Positions 1-59,891 of a stretch of DNA of 64,000 nt are shown one piece after another. The position numbers and the translations under genes were made by a program. Source of the DNA: Microbotryum violaceum (Eukaryota); the NCBI GenBank assembly GCA_001244265.2, contig CDLV01000009.1, forward strand, positions 62,001 to 126,000. Direction: 5' to 3'. Numbering within the stretch: the stretch's first letter is position 1; every line of letters starts with the position of its first letter. The notes under the pieces were generated by a model. It searched no databases and was not told the DNA's origin. It was given only the letters and a program-made list of their open reading frames with translations.

Positions 1-1204
1 CAGACAGTCGACGAGATAAGCCCATGTCATGGTGCCAGAGTCAGCGAGCCAACTGAGAGGAATACGTAAGATTTGTGTCGGTTTGCCGGGCGCTTGCGCG
101 ACCTCGGCCATAACAGTGAGTAGGGGGCTATTATCACCGGGCCAGCGCCCGCGGAGTGCGGAGCCGGTGTGCTCCATTCTTGGTCAGCTTCGTGGGGTGT
201 AGTCAGTCGACAGTCGATGTCAACGGGAGATTACTGATGCACTGAGGAAGGAGCTGCTGACACGAAGAGAGGTATGCGCTCGCGTGCAAGGAGTTCGCCC
301 GTCAACAGTGACAGAAAAGAGATCAGGTAAGACAACGTGAGACAGTCCGATGAGAGTGTCCGGTCTGTGACATCAGAGCTTGGTGCGTCGTCTGGCTTGC
401 CGAACGCCACGGTGCATTTCCTCTCAGCTTCAAGCACCGTGCAGTGAGCTGGGTACCGCCTGTTGCTCTGCAGTGTTGCCGACTCGGAGGTGCCAGTATT
501 TGACCTCAGCTGCCTGCTCGTCGCAAAGCCCTACTGCGTCTGCTGGCCCTTCATGGTACGACCTTTTTCGGGACGGGGTTCGCGACGGCGACGGCGATGG
601 CAACAGCCTCAGCGTACTCAACAGACTACAGACGACCAGATGGTACTCCGATTGCATCGTGGCGTAGATCGATCATTCGTACCCTCGTTCCGTTCCGATG
701 CAAGTCGTGCACTTTCGTTGAACCTTCTCTACATCTCTGCCCTGTTCAACTCTGGCAAGCGGCTCCGTCGCAATGACACGATCTCTTGTGCAGATGCTGG
801 CATCTCCGAGTCGGAGCGGCGGACTTCATTCTCTATGGCTTCCTGTCTGAGACTACTATCAAACAATGCCCTTGCCAAGGCGTGCAACGCCGGCTGGTAT
901 AATTTCCGCACATTCCCAGGGGGTTGAACGCCTTGGCAAGGTCTTTGTGCAATAGTAGGAAGCCAACGAGGATGGAGTCCACTCGATGCTAGCACCTGCA
1001 CAAGAGGTCGTCTCATTGCGACGCTCGCCCACCAGAGACTAGTAGGGCAGGACGCATCGGAGAAGGTTGAATGATAATGATAATTGGAAAGCGCACGAGC
1101 TACATTGGTTCAGAATCCAACCCGGAGGCAAGTAATTATACTTGTAGTCGTGGACGGGAGTCGGTCCTTCCTTCCTCGAAGAAAGCAGAAGAGACTACGA
1201 GCAC

Positions 1205-2470: not shown

Positions 2471-3631
2471 TTACTCTTCTCTGACAGCAATACCGCGCAG
2501 GTGCATCAGAACGCACTGGCGGTAATGCCAGCCGAGACACTTGTGACTGGGATAGTTGGCGCGCGACCCACGAAAATGCGAGCGAGGGACCACCTTCCCG
2601 TAATACGCGAAGTCGGTGTCGCTACTCGGATAGAAGTAGTGCACGACCAAGTTGCCGTCCTTAACCGAGATACGGCGCATGTAGCAGCGAGTCAGTCGAA
2701 GGGTCGGTACGACGCAATGAGAGGGGGTGCAGAGACAATCACGCCGAAACTCACTCCCAAGGGATAGAAGGCCCATTCGTAGCGCTCCCACGATTCATGC
2801 AGGCGCTTTGACAGGAAGAGACCGCATGGACTGAGGTAAGGCCAGACCACGTCGAACTGCTCCCAGATCTGCCGGGCCAAGCGGAGTATCAGTACATGTG
2901 ACCACATCAGCGGAACACTAAAGCACTGTCAATGAACTCACATCCAGCCGTGAAATGGGTATAATGTGTGCGGCTACGCAACCCTTGTAATCTTCCTTCG
3001 AAACGATACACTCACCATCACGCGAGAGAAGTCCTTCAAGGTAATTGTTCTGTCAGGTGGTCACAGTCGTTCGGGCGGATTCGATGGCAAATTGTTAAGC
3101 TCATATCAAATAAAGTGTGGACAACAGTGGGACAACAGCCTGGCAACGGTGGACTCACCTGGTAGCGAGCTGCAATGGTGGGACTGGTGGAATTTTTCGT
3201 ATCATCTGCGCCCGAGTGACGCATCGAGGGCATGCTGCCCAGCTTATTGCCGATGGGGCCAGTCGAAAGAGTTACATATTCGCCGTCTGGAGCGCGGACA
3301 TGGTCTGACATTAGTGCACCATCAGCTGCGCTGGAGGCGAGGCGAGGGGCGTCGGCTCACGATTAGGAACAAAAGTGTAAGTGCCTGCGACCGGCGGCGT
3401 CATCGAAGTCACGTCGACCCAAGAGCCCTTCTCATCCTGCAGACGGCCGGCTTCGTTCACATACATGCTGGATATCTCAGTGATATAATGCCAGTGATTG
3501 GTCTCTGACGATTGCAGCCAACTGAGGGGAAGGGCGGCGATCCGGACCGACTTTGACTCGTCGCGGACGTTGGCGACGACGGCCACGCATTTGCCCCAAA
3601 GCGTGAGGAACGCCGAATCGGTAAAGATCAT
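2471..3631 (-). CDS. HNH_2 (His-Me finger) endonuclease-like protein, ~5 exons
   Basis: Spliced by eye with GT..AG introns: MIFTDSAF...RDGECIVS..CVAAHIIPIS...CGLFLSKRLHESWERYEWAFYP...WHYRQCVLMHLRG. This matches the fungal HNH_2 pattern RD..C..AAHI.P / G..L...H..(F/W)D / H..C. Confidence 0.75.
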
Positions 3632-4269
3632 CACAGCGGATCTTTTCGGATGAGAGTTGATGGGCAGCAGTGGGAAGACGTGCTCCGGGTGGCGGCTTGA
3701 CGAGTGCCGCCGGTTGCGAGGCGTGACAAATAGTGCAGGCGAGCGCAGGCGTTTCTGATGAGGGTCGTCTATGTTTTAGAAGACTAAGCCATATTCCTAT
3801 TCTCGCTCCTTGTGCAGGCTGGGGAGCGGACTGGTGGAGAAGGGCAGAGAGACGCAGAAGGTGGCAAAGCAAGGCAGAGCTGCAGAGCCTACGCGCAAGC
3901 CTGTGAAGGCATGTGGAGGCAAGTGAAGGCACGTGACACGCGTGACATCTCGCGACGTGCTGGACGCGGGCTGACGCGCTGCGACGTGCGCATGTCGGGA
4001 TTCACGGTAAGCCGGAGAAAGTTTTCAGACCTTCCTATTAGCTTATAGGCGCGCGGCGCTTTCTCAGTGCTTTCGACCGCTTTTGACCCCTTTCCGGCTC
4101 TTTCGGCTCGAACTTTTGAAGCTTGAGCGCTTGGGGACGTGAAGGGTCACTTCGTCACACACAGGCCACTCAGGCTTCTCCATCTCGCCGCTGTGCGCTG
4201 AGGGGCAATCCTGCCTTGGGACTACTGTCTGCATGTCGCTTTTGCCGCACCACCTCCCCACTGCCGCGC

Positions 4270-4692
4270 CCCCCTGCCACATTCTCGACTGCCGCCTGTC
4301 GGTGAACCCGGCAACAAATTCACTGCGATGACGACCTCGGTGTGCGCTGGTCGTACTTTGGGACGTGCGGGCTCTCGCTTTCTAGACGTTTGCAAAGTCG
4401 TTCGACCGCTACGAACGGGCTCTCTATCCCTTGGGGGTCAGTTCTCCTGGTTCAATCTTCAAGGTTTGCGCCTCTTCTCTCCTTCCATCGGATTTTAGAC
4501 TGACTCGCTTCCGACATCGCAGGACGGCAACTTTGTCGTCCACTACTTCCACCCGAGTAGCGACTGCGACGTAGCGTACCACAGCAAAGTCATCCCCCGC
4601 TCTCATTTCCGCGGTTTCAAAGGGAAGCTACCTGGCGAAGCTTGTGTCCGCTGGCATTACTGCCAGTGTGTCTTGATGAACTTGCGAGACAT
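4270..4692 (+). pseudogene. Internally deleted, frameshifted inverted paralog of the HNH gene at 2471-3631
   Basis: Encodes PGNKFTAM / VRWSYFGTCGLSLSRRL-[1-nt deletion at ~4394]-KSFDRYERALYPLG / intron / DGNFVVHYFHPSSD..KVIPRSHFRG..WHYCQCVLMNLR. The AAHIIP exon is missing. Confidence 0.75.
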
Positions 4693-12710: not shown

Positions 12711-14086
12711 GTGAGCGGCTCACGTCGCTCGCACGGCGCTCAAGGGCTTCGGGTCCTTCTTCGACCTCGGGCGATGATTTGATCATGTTGTGATTTGGAA
12801 TGACAGAGGAAGTAAAGTTCATCGGGAATATGTGATATGGTATTTGAATCTTATCCACTCACCCCGCAACATAAAAGGCATGCGTTCGACACAGTGACAA
12901 ACTTTGCATCATGCGCAGCCTCCTAAGCGCAAGTTCCAATCAAGGTCGAGTGATTGCCTACTGCCGACAATATTACACCTGACGTCATGCCATGCCTGCA
13001 GCAGTGACAGCAGGCCTTTGTTACCATACAAAGAGAGTGAAATGCTTAATACAGGCAGTGACTCATGTATTGAATTTCAGTTGTGCCGGTTTATAGCGCG
13101 TCGACGCAGCATGATCTTCAAGTTATTGGCCAGCTGAACCGGCGCGGTACCGGTGCGACAAAAATCGTCGACTCGGCGGTCGATCGGGATCTTTCCCACC
13201 TTTTGACCTCCAATACTCTCCTCGTCCTCGTCATTTGAGGGCATTCTGCCCCAGAGCTTTGTTCAGTCAGGATTTCCTGTCCTCGGTCCAAATCGCTAAG
13301 AGGGTGTAAGAAGGTATACGATGGACGGGTGCGCACGAACTCTTCGTTCACGGGATCCGTGCGCTCGCTCCGAGTCGACGATGCTGCTCTCGAGCCACGC
13401 GTCGTTACACTTCTGGCAAATCGTCGTTGACGTATAGGTTTAACAGGGATGTGTTTGACTTTAGTCGTAACACTTTCGAAAGACTAAAGCGTTCAGCGTG
13501 GTCTAGCGTGGTAGCGACACGTCCGTCAAGGGTTCTCATATATAGGATCAAATCTGATCCGATCCTGATCCTAGCTGGGCAGGATCAAGATAAGATAGAT
13601 CAAGCCTCGGAGAAAAAGAAAAAAAGGTGGGGGGGTGAGGCGATGTAGCGTCGTTACTTGCAGTGGTAGATAGCCCTTTAAATGATACCTGTCGTTCACA
13701 AGAGCGCGCTACAGGGTATGTACCACTATCCGACATGTCCTTTGTTACACAAGTCTAAACTGACTATAAACTTATGTTTGCATTTTGTAGATGTCATGCG
13801 AAACCCACCTGCACCGGCGAGGGCAACGCGCGCAATCGGAGCTCATTAAAAAAGGCGAATATGTGAGGTGATCATTTCGGATGATGATAATGATAGTGAT
13901 TCCGACAAAGATGAGGAAGATAGTTATGGGCACAATAGTGGTGGTAGTAGTGAGAATGATGCACTCAACACCGATATCGATAGCGACAACTAGTGAGATG
14001 TAGTCATCAGTTGCCATATAAGGCAGTTAAATGTCTCGGATCAAATTGATCCTTCTGGATAGGATCAAGAAAGGATAGATCAACGC

Positions 14087-14679
14087 TAAGCTCGACGCCC
14101 CTCCCTTTGGGAGGGGCTTGTGAGTTATCGGCGCGTTTGGCCCAGTTGCCCTCCGAAATTTTGGCCCTGAAAAGTGCCCCATTGCTGTAGCATGGCATAT
14201 ATTGGTGCTATCTGAAAACTGGAGGGATACGTCTTTACTCCATCTCTATTGATGAGGCTTTACCGAAGCTTGAAGTATAGGAACGCTTGATCATCTCGCT
14301 ACAGCAGCTTGAATCAAGTGATTCCGAACGAGACGCAGGTCGGCGGACGGACCGACCAGTCGTAGTCCAGTCCGAGGCTCGCCGATGATGAGAGCGCCAA
14401 CTACATGATGCGCTCGGACCATCTGAGGCCCGATCGACCGAAATCGCAGACTTCGGATCGCTGTAGCTCCACCCACAGCTGATGAAAGCTCTCTCCACTT
14501 GGGGTATGTCATTTTTAGAGCATAAAGAAAAATAGGATCCCTCACTTTTGCATGAATGTAAGTATTTGCCAAGTTACAGAAAACCACTCTAAAATGGCCC
14601 TGAAATTTCGGAGGGCATCTGGGCCAAGCGCGCCGATAACTCGTAAGCCCCTCCCAGAGGGAGGGCTTAGTTGAGCTTA
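14087..14679. mobile_element. Nested MITE with ~75-bp TIRs and 9-bp TSD (Mutator-like by TSD length)
   Basis: TAAGCTC..CCCTCCCTTTGGGAGGGGCTT..GAGTTATCGGCGCG..GCCCTCCGAAATT at the left end, with its reverse complement at 14603-14679. Direct repeat GATCAACGC at 14078-14086 and 14680-14688. Confidence 0.8.
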
Positions 14680-15169
14680 GATCAACGCGGATCGAGAAAA
14701 AGAAAGAACTGATCTGATCTGATCCTCCGGTGATCTGATCCTATGAGAACAGGACCCCCGAAAGCCCAGCCAGAGGCGCATGCGAAAAAACGCCCTTTTC
14801 TGGCCTTCACCCTAACTAGTAAAAAAAAAGTGTCGATCCGCGACCATAATCGCTGCTTTTTGACTGTATTGCGGTCCGGAGGGCCGCCTGTGGTGAGTAC
14901 CAGTGCAGTATTGCGTCTGCCGCACCTGTCTGTGATATTGGCGTCCCGACCAGAAGTCATGTACGACCCTTTCTGCATTTTCTGCACCATAAAAGTCGAG
15001 CTACAGCCCGAGGACAGTTTTTGTTGATTTTTGGCGGGGTGCGCAACTATTGAGCAGTTTGTGTAATCCCGAGTATCGACAGCTACTTGAAGGGTCCGAT
15101 ACCGGTCAGTCTCTCCAGTCCGTCGTAGGCCCACATGCTGAACTGTTCGACCCACCTACATAGAAGCGG

Positions 15170-52108: not shown

Positions 52109-53288
52109 GCGCCGACACCCATTCTCAGTACCCGGAGGCTGACGCTTATGGCTTCTTCAAGAGCCATGATACTCGTCCTTATCATTTTCGCTCGTGCAAC
52201 AAAGCGGACATATTTATTGCTTTCACCCTTCGTCCTCAGCTGTGTGCAGGTCGAAGGACCTTTGATGTGGCTCGAGCCTACCAAGGAATCATTCATATTC
52301 GGCCTTTCTTCTTACCTCTATTGGAAAATGTTTTTAGTGCTTGCAACGTTGTATTTAATCGCATTCGCTTTCAACCACATGATGCATCATCAAGTCACGT
52401 CATCAAGTCACGTCCCCTGCACCACCAAAATCGCGACAGACTGCCGAATCGAACGTGTTTTATCGGGATGGGTCAGTGCCCCCTTATCTTCCGCTTGCTT
52501 CGCCAACGTCGATTTTCCGACCATCAGGATAGGCGACGGCGACGTGCCTCTTTTGCAGGGAAAATGTTCCAAACAAATACCACTTGAGAACGGACATACC
52601 TTCCCACTCTAAGGACTCCACGCCAATCCTCTCCGAGCCTCTCGCGAGAGGAGTACTATAAGAAACCGAACAAATATAGGGTCTGGGTGACACCCCCGAA
52701 GCCGAGGGGATGATTACCGCGGAGATGTTGAGTTCTTGCACGAGGAGGAGCGTATTTTGGGTAGTTAGGTCCACGACACCACTTAGACTAGTTCACGTTC
52801 CGATCCCAGGGATAAGGGCCGACGTGATCGCGCGAAGCATTGACGACGCCTCAAGTGCAGTGAGGAAGATGGGACCGGCCGTCAAGCGGACCGGCGGGAG
52901 AAGGTGAGGAACGACGCGCAGTAGAGAGGCCTAGGAGTTGTGCACGGTCAGGAGAATGATGCATCCTGCTACGCTGAAGCAGTAGGTGAAAGCGATGCAG
53001 AAGCCGTGCTTGAGCGTGCAGAGGCAGGTCCAGAACATGAAAATTTTGACGGCCGAGAGGAACGATCGGCTTGAGGAGCTATTTATTTCTCAGACGATGA
53101 CGCAGAACTTCTCGAATAAGTCACGACCAGAAGACAACTTGGGCTACGGTGCGACACGGAAAGGTGTCGGTGGGCACAAACAAGGAAAAAAAAAACTTTC
53201 GTTCAAGTACAACGCACGTTTCTACAACAAAGCAGACGCATCTACTAGATGAAGCTTCGGCCGGGTTCGAGTATTCGGGATGCTAAGA

Positions 53289-53989
53289 CTACACCTTCCA
53301 CCGCAGGGAGGGTCCGACCTGGATCATTGCGCCTTCGAGCCCGAGGAGGATCTTCAGAACGATCTTTTATACGAAATCTTGGTCCAGATCGTTGCGGGGA
53401 TTATGCGAGACAGATCCGCCGCATTACAATGGCCAGAACAAGATCTCGATCCCAACAATGATGACCATCGCGAGCTTGCATTTGGTCTCGTGACTCATGC
53501 GTATGCAGGAGAAAGTCGGACATAACCTTGATAATGCGTGGCTGAAAATTCGTGCCACAGCTATTCGGTCTCCTTCGTCTCCTTTGCCTACTTTGTTTGC
53601 GCTGCATCCATGTTTGAATGGATTGCGTCCTCCTCCCCATACAATCGTTGACCATGCAACTGCTCACCCCACCACTACCACCGATCCCGGGCTCTGACAG
53701 GGGTGCAAAGGAGACGAAGCAGACCAAATCGCTGTGGCACGAATTGTTATCAAGGGTATGTCCGACTTCCTCCTGCCTACGCATGAGTCACGAGGGCAAA
53801 TGCAAGCTCGCTATTGCTATTGGGATCGAGACCTTGTTCCGACCATTGTACCGCGGCGAATCTGTCTCGGATGATGCCCGCAACAATCTGGACTAAAATC
53901 TCGTAGTAGAGCAGATCGTTCTGCAGATCCTCCTCGGACTCGAACACTTAATGATCCAGGTCGGACCCTCCCTGCGGTGGAAGATGTAG
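53289..53989. repeat. Long imperfect inverted repeat (arms ~53289-53588 and ~53704-53989, loop ~115 nt); candidate hairpin RNA gene
   Basis: CTTCCACCGCAGGGAGGGTCCGACCTGGATCATT pairs with AATGATCCAGGTCGGACCCTCCCTGCGGTGGAAG; CTCGTGACTCATGCGTA pairs with TACGCATGAGTCACGAG; AATTCGTGCCACAGC pairs with GCTGTGGCACGAATT. Confidence 0.92.
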
Positions 53990-54384
53990 ATAGCTGAGGA
54001 CCGGCTTACCGTTCCCGCACCGCACTGCAAATCCTTCGCTGGCTACCCATCGAGTGCTCTGAAGATAGAGTGTGGCCTTCTAAGGTAGTGGAGACATTGC
54101 GAGGTGAGATTACTGAATAGTGCAACGTTGTCGAAGCAAAGAAAAGAGGGCTGGGAGTAGGCGGAGGGAGGGAGGGAGGCGGGCCAGTGCGATGTGAGCG
54201 GAAGGAAGGAGAGAAAAAGAAAAGAAAAACAGAGACGTGCGCGGGTGGCACGTCGCACACCGGCTTATTTTGTCCCATTTATGGCCCCTAGCTGCCGCGT
54301 GTCCAAAAAGCTGCCGTGGCGCGCGCGAGACGCTCAAGCCGGGCGGCACAGCTTTGGCTTCATCTACAACCTCGAGCTCGAAGA

Positions 54385-54453
54385 TGCAGCTTTGCAGGCT
54401 GTAATTGGATCTTCAACCATGTTCACGGTCTCGAAACGCACAAGAGCGCTCAC
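54385..54453 (+). other. Isolated C2H2 zinc-finger coding fragment
   Basis: CSFAGCNWIFNHVHGLETHKSAH fits C-x4-C-x3-F-x5-L-x2-H-x3-H within ORF 54316..54789, which has no in-frame upstream ATG. Confidence 0.5.
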
Positions 54454-55156
54454 TATCGGGGCCAAACACCTACTGGCAGTCCATTAGCGTCATCGGCTGC
54501 TGAATGGTATCACCTGCACTTTCTTACACATCAACGGGCCCGTCAAGCGTATGTTCACGGACTCTGTAGGCGACACTGCAGTCGAGACTCAGAAACCTTG
54601 GCATCGATCCAGACAGCTCCGATTCCAGCGACAGCGACAGCTACAGCGAAGACGACTCCTCAAGCGACAGAATGGGACTACCGTCAGAAGAGAAAGATCG
54701 TCATGTTGGGTGGCATTTTTGGCATCAACATATTGCGTGAGAACTTGCAGGGCACGTTGCGCGGCCCGCGGTGCAACAGCCACCAGTGAGGAATGCAAAC
54801 TTTTTTGAAATTTAAGGACGTTTCTTTTACAAAATTCAAGTCGGATAATTGAAACCCTTAGGTAGGCTGATCTGACTTGCCTGGTGTCACTAAGCACAAG
54901 AGGTGAGATGCTACTTATCACTAGAGAAGGAGCCGGAGGCCTAGGGAGGTTCATCCGTGATCCTGGGGCGGCGTCGCGTTGACCGATTACCGATTAGGAA
55001 CGGGCAATTTATCACTTGTGAATGGGATCGAGGCGGATAAGCGCCGTAATGAACAAAAGCGTAAGCCGTTCGCCGCGAACGGGTTCCGTCCTCTCTGCGC
55101 CCCACTCACACTGCAGCCCAATTCTCAACCCATCTCTCCACCGCCTGGCCGTAGCG

Positions 55157-56832
55157 ATGCAGCAGCTGCACAACATGGGTCGCAACGGCCCACCGCCGCA
55201 ACCGTCCCACGGTCCACCTCCACTATCGAACCAGCACCAACAGCTCCAACAACAACCGCAGCAGCAACAGCAGCAACAGCCGCAACAGCCACCGGCCGGT
55301 CCAGCAGCGGGCGTCGTCGTCCGACCGGGCGAAGAACCGCGTATCCGGGAGGTCTGGGCCAACAACCTCGAGGAAGAAATGGCGCACATTCGAGCTAGTA
55401 TCGAAAAGTACCCTTATGTCGCGATGGTGAGCTCTCCCTCGCCCGCGTTGAGTGCGACTCGGCTCGGCTCGACTGCAACTGACCGCGTCGGCCCCCACTG
55501 CGATGCTGCGATGCTGCGATGCTGCGATGCTGTGACGCTCCGATCAGGACACCGAGTTCCCAGGTGTGGTCGCGCGACCGATTGGTTCTTTTCGTGGATC
55601 GTCCGACTACCACTACCAAACGCTGCGGTGCAACGTCGACCTGTTGCGCATCATCCAGCTCGGATTGACCCTCGCCGAACAGAATGGCGAGCTCGCTCCC
55701 GGGGTGTGCACGTGGCAGTTCAACTTCAAGTTCAACATAAAGTAGGCTTGTCGCATCATCGACAGAGAAGGGGCCGTGTATTGCAGGGTGGACTTTGCTG
55801 ACGGGGGTTCCTCCGCTCGCGCTCCCCCCCGTGTCTGCCGCCCTCGTCCCCGTCCCCGTTCCCACAGTGACGACATGTACGCCCCCGAATCGATCGAACT
55901 ACTCGTCAAATCAGGCATCAACTTTAAACGCAACGAAGAGTACGGCATCGACGTCGAGCACTTTGGCGAACTGCTCATATCCTCCGGACTCGTCTTGCTC
56001 GAGGACGTGCAATGGGTGTCGTTCCATAGGTCAGTACACTTTTCTTCACTGTGCACAGAGAAACTGAGAAACTGAGTCACATTGGGCTGATGTCTGTTGT
56101 ATGCACCATCTCTCAGCGGCTACGACTTTGGCTACCTCCTCAAGATCGTATCCTGCGCTCCCTTACCGCCTACAGAAGCCGAGTTCTTTGACTTGTTACG
56201 CATCTGGTTCCCGTGTATTTGGGACATCAAAGTGGGCTCACCCGGAGATGAGAAAATCGGGACCTCTAGGTGGTGGGGCTGACTCGTGGTGTTTCCGGCG
56301 GGCGAACAGTATTTGATGAAGAGTTGCAAGTCGCTCAAGGGGGGGCTGCAGGAAGTGGCCGATGACCTTCAGGTTCGTTGGCACCGATCTTGATGCTGGC
56401 AAAGACTAGATTCTGATCCTGTCAAACCATACCCCGTACCTCAGGTCCCGCGGATAGGACCCCAACACCAAGCCGGATCGGACTCGCTCCTGACCGCCGC
56501 GACGTTTTTCAAGATGCGTGGCAAGTTCTTTGACGACGCGCTCGACAACAAGTTCATGGTCAGTCAAAAAAAGGGGGGGTCCCCAAACCCACCCTCACCC
56601 ATCTAAGCTTACCCTTCCTCACCAACAGGGCGTGCTCTATGGCCTCAACTCGTCTTCAACCGAACGCAACCCCGCCCATCCAAGAGAACACAACGGTGCC
56701 GTCCATTACCCGCATCCACCTCAAGCGCAATCACCCGCCTCAGTACCACCACAGAACGTGACCCCGTTGGCGGCGGCGACGTCCGCGGCGATTGCGATCA
56801 TGAGTCCGAGTCGGAATAATTCGGCACGGTAA
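55157..56832 (+). CDS. CAF1: CCR4-NOT deadenylase subunit Caf1/Pop2 (DEDD), multi-exon
   Basis: IREVWANNLEEE..YVAM-DTEFPGVVARP..YQTLRCNVDLLRIIQLGLT..WQFNFKF..VSFHSGYDFGYL..GGLQEVADDL..RIGPQHQAGSDSLLT. Confidence 0.95.
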
Positions 56833-57275: not shown

Positions 57276-59891
57276 CTACCCGCTTGCCCTCTCTTCCCCT
57301 CCCGTCTTCTCAGTCCTCCACGCCGCCGACGACGAAGAAGCCAATTCCCACCTCCTCAGCACCCTCGGTTCCCCAAAGGCCCTTGTCCCCTCCCCCTCCC
57401 CCTCCCCACCCTCGTTGAGCTGCATCCCCTCAAACTTCCAATCCACTTTCTTGCCCTTCCCATTCCCCTTCCCAACTTGCATCCTCCATCCTTCCGCACC
57501 GCCACCAGCACCATCCTCATCGTCCTGCTTGACCCGTTCATAAAACAACAAAAACGGGTTACCCGCCAGTACGTGTTGTATCGAAGCGAACTGAACGGTC
57601 TCGTCCGAAATATGATACCATTCCGCTCTCGTCTCTCCACCAACGAAACGTTTAAGATGACTATCGAGCTCGTCATTTGGTTCTGCTCCGACCGCGTCTG
57701 AGTGGTCGGGGTTGGTGTTGGGGTCGGGGTGGGATGTACGACTTCTTCTTCCACCCTCTTCTTGAGTTGGTATTTGATCGCGCTGACGTAAATGGGGAGG
57801 TAAAACGGGTTTTCTTCTGAAAGCGACATAATGCCCATATGAATGCGTTCCATGATGAACGACGACCGAAGCCAATCGATAAAAATCCCTCTTCGGTCTC
57901 TCGTTCAATAGTACCTCAGCACTTGCCGGTGGAACGTTCGTCGTGAAAGCCGGATCGTTAGAAAAGGGTGCAAGGTCGAGGTATTCCGGAAAGTCGACTC
58001 GACAATGGTTCTTGACGGCCAGACCACCACCCGTAGCGTAATGCGATGATCTTGAAAGATGAAAGGTTAAAATCTCGGGTGTCTGTACGAATGTTACCGA
58101 CTCCCCTTTCAGCTATCGACTTGGGGAGGGGGTGGGGAAAGGCCCGAATCTTCAACTCGGGGGGTTCTCGCTCGATACGTACCCTAGCGAAACGAACCAA
58201 TTTCCCCGCCGGCCCGAACACTTTTTCAACTTTGACCTCGTTCCCAAATTCTTTCTCGTAATCACCCGCGTCGAAGGCTTCTTTGACTTGGTTGATAATC
58301 TTTTGCACTTTGCGTCGTCGGTTCGCGCGGGAGGACGTCATTTTCGGTACGCCGGGTGCTGCTCGTACTGCGTCGGTCCTAGTCGAATAAGAAGCCGAGT
58401 CAAGTAATAGTTCAAAAGCATTCGCCGCCTCGCTCGATTTCACGATCCGATTCGACGTCGATCCACTCGAAGTCGTGGTGCAGTTCTCGGTTGACGCCGT
58501 CAAGGTCGTCACCGAATCGACGAGCGCTAACCGATCGCGTTGTTCCTCTAACTTGGTCAAGGTCGCGGCCAGACAGCATTTTCGACAGGCGTAATCGGAC
58601 AAGAGGTCGAGTTTGGTCCATTCGTCCAATAATTGGTACAATGAGCATCGATCCTATGGGGAACGACGGCAGTCGTCAAGTCAATACGTAGTGTGACCAT
58701 CGGCGGACACGATGAGCGAAGACTGACCATATCCGGCACCTGCAATTCGACCTGTTGATCACTCGTGTGCCTCACGTCCCTCGTATACGCACACGTCAAA
58801 CACTGTACCCTCTGACTCGTCAACAACAACCACGGATCGGTCTTTCCCGGCGCATCGTTTACCCCTTCTCTCCCCTTACCCTTATCCTGATCCGCCGACT
58901 CGCCGAAATGTAAAAGAGCACCCAAACCCGGCAACTCGTTCTTACGAGCATCTCTAACGATCTTGTCAACTTCTTCCTCGACTGCTTCCCTGATCATACC
59001 CAACAACTCGTGCGCATCCTGTTGTTCGCGAGAAGCGAGTAACCTTTTTCGAGTTGGGGAACTCGCGGCGAGCGCATGAGCGAGTGCGGTCGGTCGAAGT
59101 GGGGGTGGACGTAGGATGCAAGGCGAGTTGAGCGCATGGAGCGTACGTCTCAGGGTTAGGATGACCGAGTTGGGGGAGTTGAAGGTGGAAGGGAGTGATT
59201 CGAGGTAGTCTAGAAGAGGGGTGATGGATGCGATGGACTGGATTGAGGAAAGCAGGGGGGCAGGGGGCAATGTTTTCGTGGGTCAGCTCGGCGGCGTACG
59301 TGGGAGGGGAGGGGTGGGTTGTAGGAACGGAACGCACTTGGAGTGTGGCGTTGAGGAAGCAAAGATTTCCAGCGGCATTGAGTAGTCCTGGGTAGTGTGT
59401 GCCATTGGGATCACCGGAAGCAATAGGTAGATGAGCGTTAGGAAATCCTGACGACGACGGAAGCGCTGCTTGAACCCATGCCGGAATGATGATGAGCAGC
59501 TCTCGAGTCAGTACCTCTCAAAGGGGAATGAAGGAAATGAGCAGTTCTGACCTGAATGTTCATCGTCATCAGCGTCTGGGTCGATCGCCAACCCTGAGCC
59601 GATCCGTGTCCAGTCGACCGCTCCAGCCCACTTCATCACCATCGCCAGGATCCAATTATCGCCTACGAAGCCTTCGATAAAGTAAAGCACCGCCGAAGAT
59701 CTCGGTCGACCGAACAGCGCGACCCAGGTGACGATGATCGCGAGCGAGGTGAGGACCAAGCCGACCAAAGCGACGACGAGCTCGTGGGACAGACGACCTG
59801 CACTGTGGGACGTGGAAGACGGGTGGTGCGACGAGTGCGTGTGGGATTGCCGGTACGAGTAGGTGGTGTCGTCGGTCCACGGGTAGCTCAT
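57276..59891 (-). CDS. Ubiquitin-specific protease (peptidase C19) with N-terminal TM anchor, USP30/Ubp16-like
   Basis: Cys box PGLLNAAGNLCFLNATLQ, QQDAHELL, His box HHGTHSYGHYVAFRR, WYHISDETV, and N-terminal hydrophobic LVVALVGLVLTSLAIIVTWVALF. Confidence 0.88.

What the first reader, a model, noticed from the sequence alone, without database searches (positions are those of the whole stretch)
53289..53989. ~300-bp fold-back with strand-biased G:U-compatible substitutions: candidate long hairpin RNA (endo-siRNA/milRNA) gene
Seen: two ~290-300 bp arms around a ~115-nt loop, with no obvious TSD. By manual alignment about 13 isolated transition differences would be G:U wobbles on a minus-strand transcript, against only about 3-4 on the plus strand. 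A CT-rich tract (54140-54235 on the minus strand) and a GTAAG donor-like site at 54009 lie just upstream on that same strand. Several differences are synonymous in the frame LHLPPQGGSDLDH..EEDLQNDLLYEILVQIVAGI, hinting that the arms derive from a protein-coding family. Established: inverted gene duplications give rise to hairpin RNAs that Dicer processes into small RNAs. Inference: this is a Pol II hairpin RNA that silences a cognate gene or TE family, or supplies exported small RNAs.
Basis: partly seen in the sequence, partly recalled or inferred. Interest (0 to 1): 0.75.

Follow-up and report, generated by a model that had tools for sequence, protein, structure and literature searches.

The report
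Fold-back scar in a dead transposon
A real 300-base mirror repeat in an anther-smut fungus (Microbotryum) is a rearranged scrap of a dead DNA transposon's second gene, one of many such mirror repeats in this genome; it could make silencing RNA if transcribed, but nothing shows that it does or that selection shaped it.

Summary
The fold-back is real (z -30/-38; an independent DNA contig spans it). Its arms are an exon of the second gene (ORF2) of a decayed Plavaka-like DNA transposon; the closest paralog is Microbotryum lychnidis-dioicae MVLG_00679. Other copies are colinear and single-armed, so this is no MITE. The CT-rich tract and GTAAG are the element's own promoter spacer and intron donor, so a minus-strand hairpin transcript (maize Mu-killer layout) is plausible. 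The G:U skew is 14:6 (two-sided p 0.12), beside 14 transversions and 20 gap columns. It is the most skewed of 12 informative fold-backs (P 0.45), and fold-backs are common (21 segments in 780 kb sampled). Against three paralogs, the right arm has decayed like the unpaired loop (18/166 vs 11/96), the left arm far less (4/166), and they share no derived change there, so the left arm probably came from another copy and most mismatches predate the hairpin. Best reading: a template-switch repair scar (0.72). A working killer-type siRNA locus is not excluded (about 0.18); no RNA data were available. This scan already noted several similar fold-backs elsewhere in this genome.

The parts
53253..53288 (+). 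A0: 3' part of an ORF2 intron, present only on the left (unpaired); start of transposon homology
   Evidence: aligns with L011, L012, L013; one private change (alignment); the right arm has deleted it
53289..53517 (+). Left arm, segment A: intron end (acceptor ends 53306) plus ORF2 exon; antisense to ORF2 mRNA in a minus-strand transcript
   Evidence: 89% to L011 = MVLG_00679 locus; 4 private changes in 166 sites
53518..53587 (-). Left arm, segment C': inverted copy of segment C and of the C/A junction, inserted exactly between A and B
   Evidence: matches paralogs in reverse; shares 7 derived letters of 63 with C, 2 of them junction letters
53588..53704 (+). Loop, segment B: remains of the next ORF2 intron and exon start
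   Evidence: colinear with paralogs directly after A; 11 private changes in 96 sites
53705..53763 (+). Right arm, segment C: ORF2 exon piece, 11-nt deletion, ending in a microhomology junction to the inverted A
   Evidence: alignment
53764..53989 (-). Right arm, segment A: sense copy of the ORF2 exon (frame broken by stops)
   Evidence: 77-79% to paralogs; 18 private changes in 166 sites; 2 TAG and 1 TAA in the match to P0001
53972..54009 (-). ORF2 intron shrunk from 92 to 38 nt; donor (54009) and acceptor (53972) kept, likely branch site lost
   Evidence: that 38 nt is too short to splice is inference
54010..54097 (-). Putative ORF2 start codon (54097), stop after five codons, then the remains of the upstream exon; most of the ORF2 5' part deleted
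   Evidence: sequence; alignment with L012 and L011; that this ATG is the true start is inference
54082..54357 (-). Spacer between the two divergent genes of the element, holding the CT-rich tract: probable bidirectional promoter
   Evidence: 77% to L012 over 286 columns; promoter activity not tested
54382..54670 (+). 5' remnant of the Plavaka-like transposase gene
   Evidence: 85% to C19 and C3 copies; 62% to the first exon of the long C2 copy, whose downstream exons pass the PF18759 cut-off
54699..54903 (+). Sub-terminal fragment of the element; homology stops before the terminal repeats
   Evidence: 84% to L013 and L023, which run on into short tandem repeats

Best explanation
A fold-back scar made by break repair or replication template switching inside an already decayed, non-autonomous derivative of a Plavaka-like (CACTA-related) DNA transposon. 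The family order is A-B-C; here the plus strand reads A, inverted C, B, C, inverted A. Shown: the anatomy, the source family, the two short-homology junctions. Inferred: B-C was inverted at a short inverted homology; the new strand folded back, copied C and the junction from the local template, and segment A with its intron end was copied (then or by later conversion) from a less decayed copy elsewhere in the genome. The hairpin was therefore born with roughly a tenth of its A positions mismatched, and the G:U skew is mostly the right arm's own mutation spectrum. It may be transcribed now and then from the retained ORF2 promoter and leak into the Dicer pathway, but it is not a selected RNA gene.
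For: Arm has 5 other genomic places, all single-armed; those covering B and C are colinear. Family carries PF18759 over cut-off. Right arm decays like the unpaired loop, 18/166 vs 11/96; left arm 4/166 (18 vs 4, p 0.004); 0 shared derived changes in A against 7/63 in C. At 5 of 22 lineage-informative sites covered by both arms the arms differ, all in 53369-53402, the left arm mostly with L011 alleles and the right with L012/L013 alleles. Unpaired intronic A0 is as little changed as the paired left arm (1 change in about 36 nt). 14 of 34 substitutions are transversions, no fewer than between dispersed paralogs (ts/tv 0.9-3.0). Non-hairpin paralogs swing 6:2, 2:6 and 3:2 in the same classes. 21 fold-back segments in 13 of 78 sampled 10-kb stretches; no over-dispersion of strand skew (chi2 11.7, df 19, p 0.90); P 0.45 that one of 12 is as skewed as this. 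All close copies inspected are deleted derivatives; the better preserved subfamily shares none of 279 left-arm or 265 right-arm 21-mers.
Against: The skew points the same way as the retained ORF2 promoter, so a one-sided test is fair: p 0.058 / 0.039; private transitions alone give 12:4 (counts, one-sided p 0.038 by hand, 3 of them in an ambiguous stretch of alignment). It has the largest absolute strand difference in stem energy of 15 compared (-34 kcal/mol, 7.5%; one other reaches 11.5% in relative terms). The better conserved arm is the antisense one, as selection on a guide strand would predict. The arms agree at 17 of 22 informative sites and the tree that separates them has modest support (85). 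Conversion between old LTR copies is reported rare in this genus (PMC10502011, passages).
Confidence: 0.72

Rival explanations
1. A working 'killer' locus: the element's ORF2 promoter drives a minus-strand transcript that folds into a 290-bp stem; Dicer cuts it and siRNAs from the left (antisense) arm silence ORF2 relatives such as MVLG_00679. Selection has kept the antisense arm close to the family and let the sense arm drift by G:U-compatible changes.
For: Promoter spacer, start codon and donor face the hairpin; minus strand has helices of 40, 33, 20 and 20 bp; left arm keeps 38 of 279 21-mers identical to L011, right arm 1 of 265; 4 vs 18 private changes; two Argonaute loci in the genome; Dicer, RdRP and two Argonautes reported present and expressed (PMC4469406, passages).
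Against: No shared derived change in A and lineage-type alleles point to a second donor, which explains the asymmetry without selection; unpaired A0 is equally conserved; 6 of the right arm's 18 private changes are transversions and there are indels of 3, 6 and 11 nt; no intact close target element was found; skew is unremarkable among fold-backs.
Confidence: 0.18
2. A dedicated hairpin-RNA or milRNA gene aimed at a host gene or exported to the plant, as the first reader also suggested.
For: Long stable stem; RNAi genes present.
Against: Every genomic match of the arm is a copy of the transposon family; no Rfam match. Plant targets were not searched.
Confidence: 0.04
3. A foldback or MITE transposon whose arms are terminal inverted repeats.
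For: Long inverted arms; sequence is repeated in the genome.
Against: Arms are internal exon and intron sequence; no second locus has both arms; no duplication flanks the arm pair; homology runs on 900 bp beyond the right arm.
Confidence: 0.02
4. An old local duplication with identical arms in which the right arm simply mutated faster by chance or by a local mutation process, with no second donor and no function.
For: Arms agree at 17 of 22 informative sites; paralogs themselves range from 7 to 12 private changes.
Against: Needs 18 vs 4 (p 0.004), a later separate insertion of C', and homoplasy at several sites in 53369-53402.
Confidence: 0.04

Closest known systems
Mu killer (Muk) of maize (PMC3440606, abstract and outline read)
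   Same: Partial inverted duplication of an internal gene of a DNA transposon inside a deleted derivative; predicted long hairpin RNA against its own family.
   Different: Muk duplicates transposase sequence and a TIR, gives a ~4-kb hairpin by read-through from a flanking gene and is shown to silence MuDR. Here the stem is 0.3 kb of the second gene, 12% mismatched, with no transcript, siRNA or live close target shown.
Ac-silencing composite insertions of maize (bioRxiv 10.1101/2020.01.07.897926, abstract and outline read)
   Same: Inverted repeats of fractured transposon pieces, transcribed in part from the element's own promoter.
   Different: Made by alternative transposition at element ends and shown to give dsRNA, siRNA and silencing; the junctions here are internal short homologies, not element ends.
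Drosophila hpRNA loci, e.g. hp-ODox2 with Jockey-derived arms (PMC10317233, passages read)
   Same: Local inverted repeat of 200-300 bp derived from a gene or transposon, antisense to its source.
   Different: Defined by Dicer-2-dependent 21-22-nt siRNAs and precursor build-up in the mutant, none of which is known here.
Fold-back inversions from hairpin-primed repair (PMC7467729, PMC3907307; search listing and start of abstract only)
   Same: Inverted duplication with a short spacer and short-homology junctions.
   Different: Those are mostly large rearrangements; this one is 0.7 kb, nested, and appears to draw on a second template.

Membership tests
hpRNA / killer-type siRNA locus | Long local inverted repeat able to form an extended duplex | tested here: met
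hpRNA / killer-type siRNA locus | Arms homologous to a source gene or transposon elsewhere in the genome | tested here: met
hpRNA / killer-type siRNA locus | One transcript running through both arms | tested here: inconclusive
   no run on record as RNA was offered; promoter-like spacer faces the hairpin
hpRNA / killer-type siRNA locus | Dicer-dependent 21-24-nt RNAs from the arms, precursor rising in the mutant | not testable with these tools
   no small-RNA data
hpRNA / killer-type siRNA locus | Silencing of the cognate target in trans | not testable with these tools
   38 of 279 left-arm 21-mers match L011; none match the better preserved subfamily
hpRNA / killer-type siRNA locus | Selection for pairing (G:U excess, few true mismatches); a supporting sign recalled from memory, not a strict criterion | tested here: inconclusive
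   14:6 with 14 transversions; P 0.45 among 12 fold-backs; 12:4 on private changes
MITE / foldback transposon | The whole inverted unit occurs at several loci | tested here: not met
   5 other places, all single-armed
MITE / foldback transposon | Target-site duplication at the ends of the arms | tested here: not met
   none of 4 nt or more within 3 nt of either end
Plavaka DNA transposon (parent element) | Transposase matching PF18759 | tested here: met
   over cut-off in the long C2 and C1 copies of the family; the window keeps only the first exon
Plavaka DNA transposon (parent element) | Termini and 2-3-bp target-site duplication as given in PMC12730594, which also classes some Plavaka-like rust elements as EnSpm | tested here: inconclusive
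   ends of the long copies are ragged and differ between copies; hence 'Plavaka-like'

The most novel reading that the evidence does not exclude
A natural fungal 'killer' locus in which repair built a hairpin behind the transposon's own ORF2 promoter, taking its antisense arm from a then-active family member, so that siRNAs from it helped extinguish that subfamily; and, more widely, the hundreds of transposon-derived fold-backs of Microbotryum form a self-generated, RdRP-independent source of siRNA against its mobile elements.
Probability: 0.15. Interest if true: 0.6.

Novelty: new member of a known kind. Interest (0 to 1): 0.2.

Why it matters
As a single locus it is ordinary: one of many repair-made mirror repeats in transposon debris. 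It would matter if such fold-backs feed the RNAi pathway, because it would give a fungal case of how a genome first recognises a new transposon (the maize killer model), testable with one small-RNA data set. The analysis also shows a trap: a G:U skew between two arms says little about selection unless the arms were identical at birth.

Tried and rejected
Expression: no RNA holder listed; run X1 is only guessed to be RNA and covers spacer and hairpin thinly and evenly, so it was not used either way. Runs X6 and X7 (another organism label) cover the flanking genes deeply but not 52375-53251, with only faint exact pieces in the hairpin and no contig joining across; not used as evidence of absence. 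Rfam: 0 matches. Pfam: none for P0001 or the arm frames; the ESM Atlas gives DUF6532/DUF6698 clusters at 0.93-0.94 with only 144-148 shared features, a lead only. Left-flank 88-aa frame: single copy, no homologue among longer proteins; near-length proteins were not searched. MVLG_00679 in the supplements of PMC4469406: one annotation row, no expression value, in the 12 of 24 files searched; files 13-24 were not searched and may hold expression data. Literature: no paper on Microbotryum small RNAs or fold-backs among the listings (25 of 953 listed; 4 of 4; 12 of 399; 0); the library lacks most subscription journals. One search found no usable paper on wobble pairs in hpRNAs, and PMC10317233 has no such passage, so that sign is recalled. 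RIP-like CpG change does not explain the skew: about 2 of 8 C>T differences are at CpG (contexts). The fold-back count uses fixed-interval stretches, 20 of 78 from the window's own contig, arms of 50 columns or more and spans up to 3 kb; only segments with 6 or more transitions (19 of 33) entered the dispersion test.

Full report
Observation. The inverted repeat is real: arms 53289-53587 and 53705-53989 with a 117-nt loop. It folds at -465.6 kcal/mol on the plus strand and -505.8 on the minus strand, z -30 and -38. A short-read contig matches 53407-53935 letter for letter, so the assembly is sound, though that run may be the same strain. The computed alignment has 248 matches, 14 transitions that give G:U on a minus-strand RNA, 6 that give G:U on a plus-strand RNA, 14 transversions and 20 gap columns. 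The skew has two-sided p 0.115 (14:6) or 0.078 (15:6, BLAST alignment), one-sided 0.058 or 0.039.

Source of the arms. The left arm matches five other places in the genome at 76-89% (C3, C8, C7, two on C2) and a short piece at a sixth. None has a second arm. A relative's translation finds one database protein, MVLG_00679 of Microbotryum lychnidis-dioicae, which the C3 copy encodes almost letter for letter. The longest relatives are elements of about 6.5 kb with two divergent genes: one passes the Plavaka transposase cut-off (PF18759); the other, ORF2, holds the arm exon. I call the element Plavaka-like because its ends were not resolved and PMC12730594 (passages) places some such rust-fungus elements in EnSpm.

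Anatomy. In the family the order is A (intron end and exon), B (next intron), C (next exon). The window's plus strand reads A0-A, inverted C, B, C, inverted A. B resumes exactly where A ends, so the inverted C is a clean insert; the C-to-inverted-A junction sits at a short inverted homology and is present in both arms. Beyond the right arm the element goes on: a 38-nt remnant of a 92-nt intron whose donor is the GTAAG at 54009 and whose acceptor is kept at 53972, an exon remnant, a probable start codon at 54097 followed by a stop, a spacer 77% identical to another copy that holds the CT-rich tract, the first exon of the transposase on the plus strand and a sub-terminal fragment to 54903. They do make the minus strand the likelier transcript, and that strand has four uninterrupted helices of 19 bp or more against one on the plus strand.

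Is the skew selected? First control: other fold-backs. In 78 stretches of 10 kb taken at fixed places I found 21 fold-back segments in 13 stretches, 6 of them with 200 or more columns. Over the 19 of 33 segments with six or more transitions there is no over-dispersion of strand skew (chi2 11.7, df 19, p 0.90). The focal locus is the most skewed, but among the 12 segments with ten or more transitions one as skewed is expected with P 0.45. Second control: polarising with three close paralogs. At 166 sites of A where they agree, the right arm has 18 private changes (9 minus-compatible, 3 plus-compatible, 6 transversions), the left arm 4, and the arms share none; in C (63 sites, two paralogs) they share 7, two of them junction letters, with 1 and 4 private. 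The unpaired loop has 11 private changes in 96 sites, the same rate as the right arm. So the right arm, loop and C look like one copy decayed by about 11%, while the left A is only 2-3% from the family consensus, about as far as the two C copies have moved since their duplication. The left arm also keeps 36 nt of intron that the right has lost, with one change. The simplest account is that the left A was copied from another, less decayed family member, so that most mismatches are older than the hairpin. Paralogs with no hairpin show 6:2, 2:6 and 3:2 in the same classes.

What speaks against that. The skew runs with the promoter; private transitions alone give 12:4 (counts; one-sided p 0.038 by hand; three lie in an ambiguous stretch). 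The stem has the largest absolute energy difference between strands of the 15 compared. The conserved arm is the one antisense to ORF2 mRNA, and it keeps 38 of 279 21-mers identical to the MVLG_00679 locus against 1 of 265 for the right arm. The arms agree at 17 of 22 informative sites, and the tree separating them has support 85. The genome has two Argonaute loci, and PMC4469406 (passages) reports Dicer, RdRP and both Argonautes expressed. A transcription-linked excess of A>G and C>T on the non-template strand (recalled, not tested) would give the same skew without selection. No close, intact target was found: the near copies are deleted derivatives and the better preserved subfamily shares no 21-mer with either arm.

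Mechanism. Shown: structure, source, junctions, unequal ages of the arms. Inferred: template switching at short inverted homologies during repair or replication, with part of the new arm taken from an ectopic copy. Untested: transcription, small RNAs, any effect on a target; no RNA run was offered.

Comparison. It is laid out like maize Mu killer (PMC3440606, abstract) and the Ac-silencing composite insertions (10.1101/2020.01.07.897926, abstract), and like Drosophila hpRNAs with transposon-derived arms (PMC10317233, passages), but the features that define those loci, precursor, Dicer-dependent siRNA and silencing, could not be tested. It fails the tests for a MITE or foldback element. Rfam has no match. 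My searches listed no paper on Microbotryum small RNAs or fold-backs, in a library that lacks most subscription journals. Earlier notes of this scan describe several similar transposon fold-backs elsewhere in this genome (unchecked AI notes, not counted as support) and none on this sequence.

Verdict. A real but ordinary fold-back scar in a dead transposon (0.72), with a residual chance of about 0.18 that it works as a killer-type siRNA source. Interest 0.2.

Noticed in passing
window 53247-53251 and 54906-54910: A 5-bp direct repeat flanks the whole transposon-derived block; 49 offset pairs were tried, so about 5% by chance. The borders are mid-intron and sub-terminal, so it would mark a repair-patch insertion and not transposition.
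   Followed up: partly
window 766-1023, 1232-1569, 2496-4686, 14086-14680: Four more degenerate fold-backs in this window; none of the three counted is significantly skewed.
   Followed up: partly
L012 5392-5539; L014 4386-5858 and 5848-6208; L024 4759-5403 and 2885-4425; L025 4171-4532: Other loci of or next to the same transposon family also carry fold-backs, of different parts of the element.
   Followed up: partly
78 sampled 10-kb stretches of G000: 21 fold-back segments in 780 kb, 6 with 200 or more aligned columns, which extrapolates roughly to a few hundred long ones in the genome; ts/tv between arms is 302:202 over all 33 segments.
   Followed up: partly
L015 4285-4479: A 195-bp repeat inserted in ORF2 has more than 30 close copies, many 98-100% identical: a young MITE-like family.
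   Followed up: no
window 52375-53251: Single-copy stretch with an 88-aa open frame (52986-53252) and no homologue found; perhaps a decayed gene.
   Followed up: partly
window 55158-56600 (+) and 57276-58112 (-): Neighbouring genes: a CAF1-family deadenylase (exon hits E 7e-5 and 0.003, under cut-off singly) and a ubiquitin C-terminal hydrolase.
   Followed up: partly
L011 / L002 (G000:C3 about 216,000): The annotated 'hypothetical protein' MVLG_00679 is a piece of transposon ORF2 and probably not a host gene.
   Followed up: yes
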